64,000 bases of DNA, from NCBI GenBank assembly GCA_965218095.1, contig OZ244587.1:1568001-1632000 (forward strand), read 5' to 3'. Made by a program: the position numbers and the translations under genes. Origin of the DNA: Candidatus Poribacteria bacterium. GTDB taxonomy: Bacteria; Poribacteria; WGA-4E; PCPOR2b. Positions within the stretch are counted from its first letter, which is position 1; each line of letters opens with the position of its first letter. The notes under the pieces are model-generated. The model was not told the origin of the DNA, searched no databases, and was given only the letters and a program-made list of their open reading frames with translations. Of this stretch, positions 30,517 through 33,648 are shown piece after piece.

Positions 30517-31058
30517 ACACAAAAAGGAGAAGATTGTGCGTTTCTGCGTAGCATAATGCAATGATGGTGAGATTCCATCTACAGTAGCTTACAACTGCAA
30601 GCCTAACCTTAACTGCGTTGCTGGAAACGGCAGGGTGGGAAGCAAAGGGAAATGGCGCATATCTCGTGGGGAATGCAGACCCTATAAACTGATACGTCAG
30701 GCTAAGAACGGCAAGGCTAAAACGAAAGTTGAACTGATGATTGAAACCTCGTAACCTTTGAGTAGGTGAATCTGCGGGGGAAGGATTGAGAACCCTTCTG
30801 TTACCAGCCTATAACTAAGCCAGTGCGAGCTAAGGAGTGATACCTTATTCTTATATCACTCAAAGATGGTATGTAAATCTTTCATACCATTGGTAAGCCA
30901 TACAGCTTCGGGGTATAGTCAGAGCCTAAACCGTTCAGAACGTGCATTATGTGAGAGCAGGAAAGTCCCTAAGTCGTCTTTATGAGACGATAAGGGAGAG
31001 GAGATTGGACAGGGCGTAAAAACCCAAGCACAATCAGAGTCAAGGCAAGGAAAGGTTT

Positions 31059-31556
31059 ATGATAATGGATTTAACCACAATCGGAAGAAAGCAATACACG
31101 CCGAGTGGCACAAATATATTCACTCAGGAAAATATACAAAGATTGAGTGGAGATATTATGTGTATCTAACAAAAACTTGACCATGCGGTTGCAAGTGATG
31201 ATAGAACCAAGATGAAATGGTATAACGCCAGAGCATATTGGGATAAACGTGAATACATCAACGCACGAAACAGTATCAACGGGAGTCCAATCCTGTCGAA
31301 ACTGTTTAGAATGCAGAAGGGGTGCTGTGAGTATTGTAGTCAATCCATAACCGATACACAAGTTAGGGAGACCACAATACACAAGCACCACTTAAAGCCA
31401 CGAAGTGAGGGCGGTGACTGGAAATCAGGCAACCTACGATTACTACACACCGAATGCCACCGAACACTTCACAGCACGTATTCACGGAAAGAAATGGCAA
31501 GCCTCATCAGCAAAAGTATTGATTACCTTCGACTAATGAAGCCAGCCATGACATAA
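31059..31556 (+). pseudogene. Intron-encoded protein remnant: RVT_N-like start fused to the C-terminal HNH domain; RT core missing
   Basis: Single frame ...RLSGDIMCI*QKLDHAVASDDRTKMKWY|NARAYWDKR...QKGCCEYC...HKHHLKPRSEGG...NLRLLHTECH; no YADD. Confidence 0.8.
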
Positions 31557-31584
31557 TGCGATAAGTTACTTATTCCTCAAAATG

Positions 31585-31812
31585 CTAAACTTTGGGGATA
31601 CTCTCAACAATAAACGTAACATTTTCAACAAGAGATGCAAGAGTATCCTTAATAATCTGCAAATCTGCTTTGACAAAATCCATATCAGCCTTGAGGTTAT
31701 CTATAGAAGCTACAATTGGACGGCGACCAGCCTTCAACAATATAACTTCAGTCTCAAGCGCAGAAACTCGCTGTAGAATCTCTAAATCAGCAGGAACTGC
31801 ATGCTCAGGCAT
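31585..31812 (-). CDS. Small coiled-coil hypothetical protein (intron cargo)
   Basis: RBS GGAGGGAG before MPEHAV; heptad-like RVSALETEV...IDNLKADMDFVKADLQIIK; own promoter upstream. Confidence 0.65.
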   Translation of the reverse strand: MPEHAVPADLEILQRVSALETEVILLKAGRRPIVASIDNLKADMDFVKADLQIIKDTLASLVENVTFIVESIPKV

Positions 31813-31841
31813 AACTCCCTCCAAAAACTCTATAGGTATCT

Positions 31842-31881
31842 ATCTATGTATAACTGGTGTAATCTATGTATAACTGGTGTA
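31842..31881. repeat. Exact 20-bp tandem duplication in the cargo gene leader
   Basis: atctatgtataactggtgta x2. Confidence 0.9.
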
Positions 31882-31889
31882 ATTATGTT

Positions 31890-31918
31890 AGTATAACATA
31901 GCGACAATATGGAGTCAA
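31890..31918 (-). promoter_or_regulatory. Sigma70 promoter inside the intron, antisense to it
   Basis: TTGACT-17-TATACT with extended -10 TG. Confidence 0.7.
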
Positions 31919-31954
31919 GGGGGAGCTGCGCAAGACTGCGCAGAAAGTGCTATC

Positions 31955-32437
31955 CTAACGTTGAGAATCATAATGAATCTCTCTAAAACCCTCAATATGT
32001 GCGTCAAACTCCAAAGCAATATCAGCAAGCCGGGAGTGAACGCTGGACATGTTAGAGTCAGTTAGACTAGAACCGTAATACACTAACACTCCAAAATGTT
32101 CCAACAGGGGAGATAACCAAGAGGGTATATCCATCACAACCTTCGGGTGGTAGGCAACAACTATGGTGTAAACATAACCTAATAGAGAACCAGAAACAAG
32201 ATGGGATTCAAATATCCGTATATTTACAGTAAAAAGAGAATCCTGACTAACTAGAACAACTTCTGGTATCTTACGAAACTCTCTGCTTAGGTAACCTCTT
32301 AACGCACTAGGACTTAACGCCTCCGCTTGTATACTCAAAACCAATTTTACCCTCACATCTGGTAAAGGTTCTATAGAAGCTGAAGGGAAAGCACAGAACA
32401 GGGAGCAAGCCACTACAAAATACCGAACAGAAATCAC
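31955..32437 (-). CDS. Exported hypothetical protein (intron cargo)
   Basis: RBS GAGGAGGTG; signal-peptide-like MISVRYFVVACSLFCAFPSAS; 160 aa uninterrupted; AT-rich. Confidence 0.65.
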   Translation of the reverse strand: MISVRYFVVACSLFCAFPSASIEPLPDVRVKLVLSIQAEALSPSALRGYLSREFRKIPEVVLVSQDSLFTVNIRIFESHLVSGSLLGYVYTIVVAYHPKVVMDIPSWLSPLLEHFGVLVYYGSSLTDSNMSSVHSRLADIALEFDAHIEGFREIHYDSQR

Positions 32438-32607
32438 ACTCTCTCACCTCCTCTTAACAGTTTTTGATCATTGTATGACGACCAAAAATGGGTGAGGTTT
32501 AATCTTATCGCGGTCATCATTTATAACTCGGAAAGCCGGGTGCGGTGAAAGTCGCACGCCCGGTTTGGAAGGGGGGAAAATTCCGCAAGGAATCTACCTA
32601 TCCTTAC

Positions 32608-33648
32608 ATGAAGCAAACACAGAACAAACTTCGTGTCGCCATCGCGGGATGTCACCGCTAGGTGACGCGCACGCCGGGAGGCCACAATTTCGCGACCGCT
32701 TTTCATGCAGTGCCAGAAACCGAAGTGGTGGGCATCTTTGATCTTGGCACAGACACACGATCCAAACTCGTGGATTGCTGGCGCGATGTTTGGAGAAACA
32801 TCCCGACCTATGACGACTATCCACAGATGCTTTCGGAAATCAAGCCGGACCTGCTATGCATCGCCACGCGCCAAACCATGCACGCGGATCAGATTGAGCT
32901 AGCCGTCCAAGCGGGAGTACGCGGCATCTTGTCTGACAAGCCCCTCGTCACAACTTTGGCAGAGATGGACCGGATCATCGCTGCGTGCGAGAACGTGCTG
33001 CTGCTTTTGGGGTTGGAGAAGCGCTGGTACCCTCGTTACCAGTCTCTGCGAAAGCTGATTGCCGAAGGGACGATTGGACTAGTTACGAGTATCGTCGCCT
33101 ATGGGCTGCCTAACTTGATTAACCATGGTTGTCACTGGTATGACACGCTGCTGCTGTTGGCTGGTGACATCGAGCTCGCCTGTGTCAGCGGCTTGGTGAA
33201 CGACGTTTCGGGGGAGCCAGAGGATTCTCGGCGCCGCATGGACCCATCAGGATGTGGCCAGATTGGACTGGCGAATGGAATGGTGCTTTATATCACTGCA
33301 GACGGTCAGCAGATGAGCTTTGAGGTCCTGGGTGAAAGGGGACGTTTGTTTATCCTCAACGATGGCAATGACAGCTTCATCTGGTTAGTGGATGATGAAT
33401 CGGGTGTGCGTCCCCTGGATATGCCGGAGGAGACAACTGCCTGGCCCGCCGGGCCGGCAATGGTGAGGGATCTGGTCCAGGCCGTGCAGACAGGGGGGCG
33501 AACATCCTTAGATATCGACCGTGCCCGTCGTACAACAGAGATCGGCTTCGCCATCCATGCGTCATCAGCAGCTGCCGGCGCGAAGGTTGACCTGCCTATG
33601 GACGAAAGATCGTTCCGCATTGAATCATTCCCCTGGGGTAATGAATGA
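32608..33648 (+). pseudogene. Gfo/Idh/MocA oxidoreductase (3' exon of the intron) with in-frame TAG at codon 18
   Basis: MKQTQNKLRVAIAGCHR*VTRTPGGHNFA...PDLLCIATR..MHA...DKPL; TAG at 32659-32661. Confidence 0.8.

What the first reader, a model, noticed from the sequence alone, without database searches (positions are those of the whole stretch)
30521..32610. Group II intron inserted exactly between a Shine-Dalgarno sequence and its start codon
Seen: removing 30536-32607 gives AAAAAGGAGAAGATT|ATGAAGCAA, a well-spaced RBS-ATG for the oxidoreductase. EBS1 (AATCTT) pairs with the spacer AAGATT, and a neighbouring loop (CCTTATTCTTA, 30843-30853) could pair with the SD itself as EBS2. Knowledge: lineages of group II introns that target translation signals have been described. 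Inference: translation of the downstream gene depends on splicing, so the intron acts as a switch or silenced the gene, which now has a TAG at codon 18.
Basis: partly seen in the sequence, partly recalled or inferred. Interest (0 to 1): 0.7.

Follow-up and report, generated by a model that had tools for sequence, protein, structure and literature searches.

The report
Intron lineage that homes to ribosome-binding sites
A decayed self-splicing group II intron sits exactly between a gene's ribosome-binding site and its start codon, and its relatives do the same at other genes because one of their guide sequences pairs with the ribosome-binding site itself.

Summary
A 2072-nt group II intron (30536-32607) separates AAGGAG-N6 from the ATG of a Gfo/Idh/MocA gene. 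Two syntenic intron-free orthologues, nine further homologues and one paralogue all show AGGAG-N7-start. The gene carries TAG at codon 18, where all 12 homologues have Met.

The true EBS2 is CCTTT (30755-30759), in the internal loop typical of subgroup IIB. It pairs with AAAGG of the Shine-Dalgarno motif at -13..-9, and this pairing covaries across 17 copies. EBS3 (30916) pairs with the A of the ATG.

16 related copies in this genome and in relatives of the same family lie just after AGGA(G/A/T). Twelve of them have an ATG within 6 nt. Four of them, all in relatives, sit at the starts of intact PhyH, SDR, sulfatase and PepF genes, and two of those carry an open intron-protein frame. The lineage therefore targets translation starts through an anti-SD-like EBS2.

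Here the element is dead. Its reverse transcriptase is deleted, an 898-nt foreign cassette sits in domain IV, and the genome's only maturase gene is broken. It lacks the 5' insertion that defines the published start/stop-codon IIB1 clade. Splicing was not shown.

The parts
30524..30529 (+). Shine-Dalgarno motif AAGGAG of the host gene, 6 nt upstream of the insertion point
   Evidence: Read. AGGAG at the same distance from the start codon in 12 of 12 intron-free homologues.
30523..30527 (+). IBS2 (AAAGG, exon positions -13..-9), overlapping the SD
   Evidence: Pairs with EBS2 CCTTT. The same register holds in most of 17 copies, with compensatory changes.
30529..30535 (+). IBS1 (GAAGATT, -7..-1), the SD-to-ATG spacer
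   Evidence: 7 bp (1 G-U) with the loop at 30876-30882.
30536..32607 (+). Group IIB1-like intron, 2072 nt, non-autonomous
   Evidence: GTGCG 5' end. RF00029 at 66.9 bits. Junction-exact homology to paralogues. Consensus fold of domains I-III has 117 pairs, 81 with compensatory changes.
30755..30759 (+). EBS2 (CCTTT), in the internal loop between two stems of subdomain ID; anti-SD-like
   Evidence: Alignment A2 columns 222-232. Own-exon pairing score 4.97 against 3.48 +/- 0.20 in permutations, reached by 0 of 2000.
30835..30861 (+). Hairpin H1 with loop CCTTATTCTTA (30843-30853). It is unused at this site but acts as the EBS1-like loop in other copies.
   Evidence: Fold. The H1 loop pairs with -7..-1 in 7 of 15 two-hairpin copies.
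30865..30891 (+). Hairpin H2 carrying EBS1 (AATCTTT, 30876-30882)
   Evidence: Fold; pairing.
30916..30916 (+). EBS3 (T), pairing with IBS3, the A of the start codon at 32608
   Evidence: Alignment column 395 is Watson-Crick to exon +1 in 13 of 16 copies, plus 1 wobble. It is the best of all 641 columns.
31065..31556 (+). Remnant of the intron-encoded protein: N-terminal ~55 codons with an in-frame TAA at 31167-31169, joined directly to the C-terminal DNA-binding/HNH part. RT and maturase domains are deleted.
   Evidence: Pfam HNH 1.7e-9 on 31212-31556. Compared with the full-length paralogue c0598.
31564..32461 (.). 898-nt cassette in domain IV, unique in this genome and absent from the 28 other genomes of the family searched. 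A related strain has 1015 other letters in its place.
   Evidence: Contig joint 31563->32462 with 1015 letters between.
31585..31824 (-). Antisense ORF of 79 aa inside the cassette (the likely start is the ATG at 31812, preceded by GGAGGGAG). No family found.
   Evidence: The SD was read.
31955..32437 (-). Antisense ORF of 160 aa inside the cassette, preceded by GAGGAGG. Five weak remote homologues of similar length; no family.
32531..32607 (+). Domains V and VI. The probable branch-point A at 32600 is inferred.
   Evidence: RF00029 alignment; fold.
32608..33648 (+). Gfo/Idh/MocA oxidoreductase gene with in-frame TAG at 32659-32661 (codon 18), otherwise open
   Evidence: Pfam GFO_IDH_MocA 5.3e-14, read with X at the stop. 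Met at this codon in 12 of 12 homologues.

Best explanation
This is a degenerate, non-autonomous group II intron of the chloroplast-like/IIB1 type. It retrohomed into the junction between the Shine-Dalgarno sequence and the ATG of a Gfo/Idh/MocA gene. Three RNA guides set the site. EBS2 (CCTTT) pairs with the SD core (AAAGG, -13..-9). EBS1 (AATCTTT) pairs with the 7-nt spacer. EBS3 (T30916) pairs with the A of the ATG. IBS2 lies a fixed 8-9 nt from the insertion point. That distance equals the usual SD-to-start spacing, so an intron whose EBS2 is complementary to the SD lands at or beside start codons. The intron belongs to a lineage, in this bacterial family, that has kept such an anti-SD-like EBS2 while EBS1 diverged from gene to gene. 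In the precursor RNA the SD and spacer are paired with the intron, and the ATG is 2 kb away, so translation of the host gene requires splicing (inferred). In this genome the system is dead: the intron lost its RT/maturase, gained a foreign cassette, no intact maturase gene remains, and the host gene has a premature TAG. Shown: anatomy, pairings with covariation, and the insertion pattern. Inferred: the retrohoming history, the dependence of translation on splicing, and present lack of splicing.
For: Borders and class. The fold has 81 of 117 pairs with compensatory changes. [quoted passage not shown] EBS3 covaries with +1 in 13 of 16 copies, plus 1 wobble. The best solved relative of the family's protein is the TeI4h RT, 6ME0_C, at 2.5e-57. 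TeI4h is classed CL/IIB1 in PMC2882425 (passages).

EBS2-SD pairing: 17 copies, score 4.97 against 3.48 +/- 0.20 when permuted, reached by 0 of 2000 permutations. Matched pairs are CCTTT/AAAGG, CCTTA/TAAGG, CCTCC/GGAGG, CTTCC/GGAAG, CTCCT/AGGAG and TATCTCC/GGAGATA. Copies not at an SD have matching non-SD pairs: GGATAG/CTATCC, TCTTC/GAAGA and ATACGCG/TGCGTAT. A further subfamily shows TTGGG/CCCAA and TTAGG/CCTAA.

Insertion pattern: AGGA(G/A/T) ends at -6..-10 in 7 of 14 distinct 5' junctions in this genome. The same is true of 9 of 37 junctions in relatives of the same family (5 of 15, 2 of 16, 2 of 6). Of these 16 sites, 12 have an ATG within 6 nt of the junction.

Real genes: the intron lies 3, 1 and 2 nt before the ATG of PhyH, SDR and sulfatase genes and directly after the ATG of a PepF gene in four other genomes. 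In each, the Pfam domains start within the first residues. Two of these introns have open 583- and 597-codon protein frames.

SD-type copies occur in every major branch of the ribozyme tree. AGGAG lies at -16..-5 of 529 of 2610 long ORFs, against 6 of 2610 at a control offset.

Decay here. TAG against Met in 12 of 12 homologues.
Against: No splicing product was seen. The four RNA-library contig sets I laid show no 30535->32608 joint, and one contig runs unbroken from the intron into exon 2. Contigs cannot show absence, and DNA may be present in such libraries.

The EBS2-IBS2 helix is short: 5 bp here and 3-4 bp in 4 of 17 copies.

Two SD-type copies (c0267, c5526) have no start codon nearby. 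Several others precede only short ORFs of 22-73 codons, so not every 'SD' is a proven ribosome-binding site.

Half of the junctions in this genome and 28 of 37 in relatives are not SD-type. 17 of those 28 share one other repeated target.

Survival bias could add to the pattern, because insertions between the SD and the ATG are harmless once spliced.

I could not read Michel et al. 2007, so I cannot say whether SD pairing was already proposed there.
Confidence: 0.8

Rival explanations
1. The intron is a maintained regulatory switch. Splicing, controlled by a maturase, gates translation initiation of the oxidoreductase, and the host benefits from it.
For: The SD and spacer are the intron's IBS2 and IBS1, so they would be sequestered in the precursor. 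In relatives the same arrangement sits in front of open PhyH, SDR, sulfatase and PepF genes, twice with an open intron-protein frame.
Against: In this genome the intron's RT/maturase is deleted. The only GIIM-bearing gene has a TGA and a frameshift. The only other RVT_1 hit has no GIIM match. The host gene has TAG at codon 18. Two neighbouring paralogues are also broken. An intact paralogue exists elsewhere in the genome. There are no expression data.
Confidence: 0.1
2. The SD association is not targeting but survivorship or chance. The introns insert widely, and only copies in untranslated leaders persist.
For: Bacterial group II introns are mostly found outside coding sequence (PMC4424553, passages read). 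Many SD-type copies here precede only short ORFs.
Against: Survivorship does not explain why the intron's own EBS2 is complementary to the SD at a fixed register, or why it changes together with the exon. It also does not explain why the junction falls within 6 nt of an ATG in 12 of 16 SD-type sites rather than anywhere in the leaders.
Confidence: 0.07
3. It is a member of the published specialised IIB1 clade associated with start and stop codons (Avi.groEL, EcKTE56.groEL and relatives).
For: Same subgroup (IIB1/CL-type protein with an endonuclease domain) and the same kind of site, beside a start codon.
Against: According to PMC12584367 (introduction and discussion read), all members of that clade carry a 300-700 nt subdomain Ia in the basal internal loop of domain I. 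Here that loop strand is 3 nt long in all 17 aligned copies, and ORF-less copies total only 715-803 nt. That clade is described from proteobacteria and housekeeping genes. Here the hosts are accessory-type enzymes in a family whose runs are labelled as sponge metagenome.
Confidence: 0.05
4. The host gene is still functional, through read-through of the TAG or re-initiation at the GTG at 32662.
For: After the TAG the frame stays open for 328 codons at 71-73% identity to orthologues, and a GTG follows the TAG directly.
Against: TAG ends 367 of 1373 long open frames genome-wide, so it is an ordinary stop here. A start at 32662 would remove the first strand and the glycine-rich motif of the Rossmann fold; this rests on established knowledge of the family and on the Pfam domain starting at residue 9. 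Expression would still need splicing.
Confidence: 0.05

Closest known systems
Specialised IIB1 clade at start/stop codons (Michel et al. 2007; Avi.groEL, EcKTE56.groEL), known to me only through PMC12584367
   Same: Subgroup IIB1 with a CL-type RT that has an endonuclease domain. Insertion within or beside translation start or stop codons. A possible interplay with ribosomes is discussed there.
   Different: That clade is defined by a 300-700 nt subdomain Ia, which is absent here. It is described from proteobacteria and housekeeping genes. That paper states that how its members reach start or stop codons is unknown. Here an RNA pairing (EBS2 with the SD) accounts for it.
Thermosynechococcus elongatus TeI3/TeI4 family (PMC2882425)
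   Same: Closest solved protein relative. One genome holds many copies, most ORF-less or degenerate, with EBS sequences diverged into sub-families. Some copies lie inside other mobile DNA, and ORF-less copies depend on proteins supplied in trans.
   Different: The passages I read describe no SD-directed targeting there. One family there inserts between two start codons of another intron's ORF. Here no intact protein remains in the genome.
Subgroup IIC introns that insert after transcription terminators
   Same: It works in a similar way: a lineage aimed at a generic gene-expression signal rather than one unique sequence, so a genome holds many potential sites.
   Different: IIC introns recognise a DNA hairpin and lack EBS2 (PMC8643678, PMC12584367). 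Here recognition is by ordinary EBS2 base pairing with a linear motif.
EcI5 (E. coli IIB1 intron; PMC8643678)
   Same: [quoted passage not shown]
   Different: EcI5 has one unique homing site. Most copies of the present lineage also carry two adjacent hairpins, either of which matches -7..-1.

Membership tests
Group II intron | 5' GUGYG and 3' AY ends | tested here: met
   GTGCG at 30536 and ...TTAC at 32607.
Group II intron | Domains V and VI (catalytic hairpin, bulged branch A) | tested here: met
   RF00029 at 66.9 bits against a gathering score of 40, full model positions 1-77. Fold z-score -2.98.
Group II intron | Conserved multi-domain secondary structure supported by covariation | tested here: met
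   Domains I-III of 17 copies: 117 pairs, 81 with compensatory changes. Domain IV-VI joints were not modelled.
Group II intron | EBS1-IBS1 pairing at the 5' splice site | tested here: met
   7 bp here. Pairing anchored at -1 exceeded all 2000 permutations across 15 copies.
Group II intron | Intact intron-encoded RT/maturase | tested here: not met
   Only an N-terminal stub with a TAA, plus the HNH end. An intact protein is not required for membership (ORF-less introns exist), but it is required for autonomy.
Subgroup IIB1 (CL lineage) | [quoted passage not shown] | tested here: met
   A2 columns 222-232, between stems 216-221/388-393 and 233-238/280-285. Definition from PMC8643678.
Subgroup IIB1 (CL lineage) | EBS3 in an internal loop of ID, pairing with exon +1 | tested here: met
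   Column 395: 13 of 16 Watson-Crick plus 1 wobble.
Subgroup IIB1 (CL lineage) | [quoted passage not shown] | tested here: met
   Three nucleotides between the two basal stems. Criterion from PMC8643678.
Subgroup IIB1 (CL lineage) | CL-type RT with an endonuclease domain | tested here: inconclusive
   The paralogue's protein best matches the TeI4h RT at 2.5e-57 and the NCBIfam group II RT model. No class-level tree was made.
Specialised IIB1 start/stop-codon clade (Michel 2007) | Insertion within or next to initiation or termination codons | tested here: met
   Here and at 11 other SD-type sites.
Specialised IIB1 start/stop-codon clade (Michel 2007) | Large 5'-subterminal insertion (subdomain Ia, about 300-700 nt) | tested here: not met
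   Absent in all 17 aligned copies. ORF-less copies are 715-803 nt in total.
Specialised IIB1 start/stop-codon clade (Michel 2007) | Monophyly with Avi.groEL / EcKTE56.groEL | not tested
   No sequence of those introns was available to me through a tool.

The most novel reading that the evidence does not exclude
A IIB1 intron lineage in bacteria whose sequencing runs are labelled as sponge metagenome has turned its EBS2 into a mimic of the ribosome's anti-SD. This makes every SD-led start codon a potential homing site, with only the 6-7-nt spacer guide (EBS1) left to re-program. The lineage also carries two interchangeable EBS1 hairpins, so one intron can hold two spacer specificities at once. 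Where the intron protein is intact, splicing gates translation initiation of the host gene, and the ribosome and the intron compete for the same SD.
Probability: 0.4. Interest if true: 0.8.

Novelty: new variant of a known kind. Interest (0 to 1): 0.62.

Why it matters
Three target strategies are listed for bacterial group II introns in the 2015 review I consulted: unique homing sites, terminators and attC sites (PMC4424553). For the one described clade found at start and stop codons, a 2025 paper states that the way it reaches those codons is unknown (PMC12584367).

Here a simple RNA rule explains start-codon association. EBS2 is complementary to the Shine-Dalgarno motif, and the fixed IBS2-to-splice-site distance equals the SD-to-AUG spacing. 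This gives a directly testable model, because intact copies sit in front of intact genes in two relatives.

It also raises the question of competition between ribosome and intron for one RNA motif. It suggests a natural design for retargeting such introns to gene starts.

For this locus itself the result is ordinary decay: a dead intron in front of a dead gene.

Tried and rejected
It gives at most 5 bp with G-U against the SD and shows no covariation with -13..-9.

Cyanobacterial host: rejected. There is no Photo_RC hit in the genome.

TAG recoding: rejected. TAG ends 367 long frames.

Search for close relatives of the intron protein in genome contigs. The single-protein scan found nothing. 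The alignment scan returned only distant RTs at 31-40% identity, because the chosen peptide patterns were generic. Neither was used.

Metagenome scan with a 19-nt intron motif. All 80 loci returned belong to an unrelated repeat, and none has a GTGYG at the expected distance. The scan was wasted.

Order-level DNA search. Outside the window's family it found only short conserved cores. Of those 12 loci, 10 gave a 5' end and 0 of the 10 were SD-type.

RNA evidence. Four RNA-library runs were laid as contigs. There was no contig with a 30535->32608 joint, no cover over parts of the cassette, and no difference listed at 32659-32661. The table lists only some of each contig's differences. None of this shows absence of splicing or identity of the TAG.

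Cassette ORFs. There were no Pfam, NCBIfam or PADLOC families, and for the 79-aa ORF only weak PHROG matches (best E 0.013). The word-indexed search found no relatives. The full scan gave five weak hits, which have no Pfam family. The protein atlas gave only 'hypothetical protein' clusters. No terminal inverted repeats were found. Function is left open.

Michel et al. 2007 is not held. Searches of the paper library for SD- or anti-SD-directed group II targeting and for dual EBS1 found no such description.
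Full report
THE OBSERVATION. The window reads ...caaaaaggagaagatt|GTGCGTTTCTG... at 30520-30546 and ...CTACCTATCCTTAC|ATGAAGCAA at 32594-32616. Rfam's group II model (domains V-VI) matches 32531-32607 at 66.9 bits, over its full length, and ends on the last intron base. The window lies in a one-contig genome of 6.35 Mb. A search of that genome with the 2072-nt element gave 37 matches. I paired these into 13 complete related copies, plus 2 5'-only and 4 3'-only fragments. 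In every paired copy, homology starts at the GTGCG and ends at the ...TAC. RF00029 finds 23 domain V-VI units in the genome. The borders 30536 and 32607 are therefore firm.

THE EMPTY SITE. I searched 40 related genomes with the host protein and read the 5' regions of the 11 best loci and of a paralogue in this genome. All 12 show AGGAG, 7 nt, ATG or GTG, then 17 codons ending ...AGCHRM (one of them ...AGGHRM). With the intron removed, the window reads AAGGAG, 6 nt, ATG, and the same 17 codons. Two of the loci (L032, L033) are positional orthologues, because the gene downstream of them matches the window's downstream gene at 83-89% identity. At codon 18 all 12 have ATG (Met), whereas the window has TAG (32659-32661). 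TAG is an ordinary stop in this genome: it ends 367 of 1373 long open frames. The rest of the gene is open.

CLASS AND ANATOMY. I aligned the first ~545 nt of 17 copies, 11 from this genome and 6 from five related genomes. The consensus fold has 117 pairs, 81 of them with compensatory changes. It shows the usual domain I arms, domain II and the start of domain III.

- The strand between the two basal stems of domain I is 3 nt long. There is no room for the two stem-loops that mark IIB2, or for the 300-700 nt subdomain Ia of the published start/stop-codon clade. These criteria come from passages of PMC8643678 and from the introduction and discussion of PMC12584367.
- The only near-full-length intron protein in the genome is in copy c0598. 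It best matches the solved TeI4h RT (6ME0_C, 2.5e-57). The authors of PMC2882425 class TeI4h as CL/IIB1 (passages read).

EXON-BINDING SITES. The 9-nt loop TAAATCTTT (30874-30882) of a 9-bp hairpin pairs with GAAGATT at -7..-1.

EBS2 is not the neighbouring loop at 30843-30853. Across the copies, the segment that matches exon positions -13..-9 is the internal-loop strand at alignment columns 222-232. In the window this is CCTTT at 30755-30759, pairing with AAAGG at 30523-27.

- Among 17 copies, the mean best pairing with a copy's own exon scores 4.97. With exons permuted it scores 3.48 +/- 0.20, and 0 of 2000 permutations reach the observed value.
- The changes are compensatory: CCTTA/TAAGG, CCTCC/GGAGG, CTTCC/GGAAG, CTCCT/AGGAG and TATCTCC/GGAGATA.
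- Copies not at an SD show GGATAG/CTATCC, TCTTC/GAAGA and ATACGCG/TGCGTAT. A further subfamily shows TTGGG/CCCAA and TTAGG/CCTAA.
- This internal-loop location is the IIB arrangement.

One column (395; T30916 in the window) is Watson-Crick to the first 3'-exon base in 13 of 16 copies, plus 1 wobble. It is the best of all columns. This is EBS3, and here its partner is the A of the start codon.

THE LINEAGE TARGETS TRANSLATION STARTS. In this genome 7 of 14 distinct 5' junctions have AGGA(G/A/T) ending at -6..-10. In the other genomes of the family 9 of 37 junctions do (5 of 15, 2 of 16, 2 of 6). Of the 28 others, 17 belong to a subfamily with one repeated target and 4 to another. In the sister family, 12 loci were returned, 10 gave a 5' end and 0 of those 10 are SD-type.

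Of the 16 SD-type sites, 12 have an ATG within 6 nt of the junction. In two the intron splits A|TG. In three it follows the ATG directly. For two the 3' exon was not recovered, and two have no start codon.

Four sites in four other genomes are at proven gene starts:
- 3 nt before the ATG of a PhyH gene.
- 1 nt before the ATG of an SDR gene.
- 2 nt before the ATG of a sulfatase gene.
- Directly after the ATG of a PepF gene.

In each, the Pfam domains begin within the first residues of the ORF. The PhyH and sulfatase introns carry open 583- and 597-codon protein frames. SD-type copies occur in every main branch of a ribozyme tree built without the EBS columns, so the anti-SD-like EBS2 looks ancestral. 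The genome uses SDs heavily: AGGAG lies at -16..-5 of 529 of 2610 long ORFs, against 6 of 2610 at a control offset.

The geometry follows from this. IBS2 at -13..-9 places the insertion point 6-7 nt after GGAG, which is where start codons lie.

STATE OF THIS COPY. The intron protein frame (31065-31556) keeps about 55 N-terminal codons, with a TAA at 31167. It then runs straight into the C-terminal DNA-binding/HNH part (Pfam HNH 1.7e-9). An 898-nt cassette (31564-32461) follows the stop. It is unique in the genome and absent from the 28 other family genomes searched.

The genome has one GIIM (maturase) hit, in c0598. That gene has an in-frame TGA and a frameshift. The only other RVT_1 hit has no GIIM match. 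Other long copies are interrupted by transposase genes read on the opposite strand. Protein-assisted splicing is therefore unlikely here, and the host gene is best read as a pseudogene.

The neighbouring paralogues are also broken. One is frameshifted (29106-30366) and one has an in-frame TAG (33780-34802).

RNA DATA. Fourteen public runs hold part of the stretch. Four are RNA libraries labelled sponge metagenome. Laid as contigs, one 2398-nt contig of a close variant covers 30666-31563 and 32462-32900, with 1015 other letters in place of the cassette, and it runs unbroken across the 3' splice site. So the intron-bearing allele exists in nature with a different cassette. The contig may be unspliced RNA or DNA. 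See Tried and rejected for what these data cannot show.

KNOWN AND NEW. A IIB1 clade at start and stop codons is in print. I know it only through PMC12584367. It is defined by subdomain Ia, which is absent here, and that paper says the means by which the clade reaches those codons is unknown. The 2015 review lists three target specificities, none of them the SD. My searches of the paper library found no description of SD pairing by EBS2. Michel et al. 2007 and all supplements were not available to me.

I therefore file this as a new variant of a known kind. At this locus it is a dead copy. The interest lies in the lineage rule and in the two-hairpin EBS1 feature described under Noticed in passing.

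Noticed in passing
window 30835-30891; also G000 copies c0598, c2598, c3601, c4514 and loci L045, L064, L168, L170: Most copies of this subfamily carry two adjacent hairpins (H1, H2) in the distal part of subdomain ID. The loop complementary to exon -7..-1 is H1 in 7 of 15 copies, H2 in 6 of 15, and neither in 2. No permutation out of 2000 reaches either count. Copies c3601 and c4514 are 98.9% identical over 653 nt and have identical loops, yet they sit at sites matching H2 and H1 respectively. Related subfamilies and some copies have a single hairpin. Loop sequences recur in the other slot of other copies: the window's H1 resembles c3601's H2. This looks like two interchangeable EBS1 modules. 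I found no description of it.
   Followed up: partly
window 31564-32461: This is an 898-nt cassette in intron domain IV, just after the protein stop. It carries two antisense ORFs (160 aa and about 75-79 aa), each preceded by a strong SD, and a perfect 20-nt tandem repeat (31842-31881) between them. A close strain has 1015 different letters at the same two borders. The 160-aa product has only five weak remote homologues and no family. Its function is unknown.
   Followed up: partly
window 29106-30366, 33780-34802, 34982-35161: The host gene sits in a row of Gfo/Idh/MocA paralogues that are also damaged. One is split by a frameshift, one has an in-frame TAG, and one is a short fragment. The stretch 29000-30535 has about 45% G+C, against 55-63% in the flanks, and has no counterpart upstream of the syntenic orthologues.
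   Followed up: partly
G000:C1 598220-600671 (L005, L014): The only full-length intron of the family in this genome splits an A|TG preceded by AAGGAT. Its protein gene has a TGA and a frameshift. About 20 dependent copies therefore have no intact protein gene left in this genome.
   Followed up: yes
G000 copies c5526, c0707, c5863, c4389; locus L169: Several intron copies are themselves interrupted by insertion sequences. Long transposase-like ORFs lie on the opposite strand, or in L169 inside domain I.
   Followed up: no
locus L175 (G105): In the sister family, a more distant intron of the same type is inserted after ...GTAGCTCAGGGGATAG, which looks like the D-arm of a tRNA gene. This recalls TeI4h in a tRNA gene (PMC2882425).
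   Followed up: no
window 30536-30556 and the same place in other SD-type copies: Because the SD lies 6 nt before the intron, the intron's own first codon GTG sits at start-codon distance in the unspliced RNA. It would open a 6-codon frame here and frames of 3-11 codons in other copies. Ribosomes might start there and interfere with the 5' splice site. This is inference only.
   Followed up: no
window 15281-15353: A tRNA gene matches RF00005 at 60 bits. It is unrelated to the finding.
   Followed up: no
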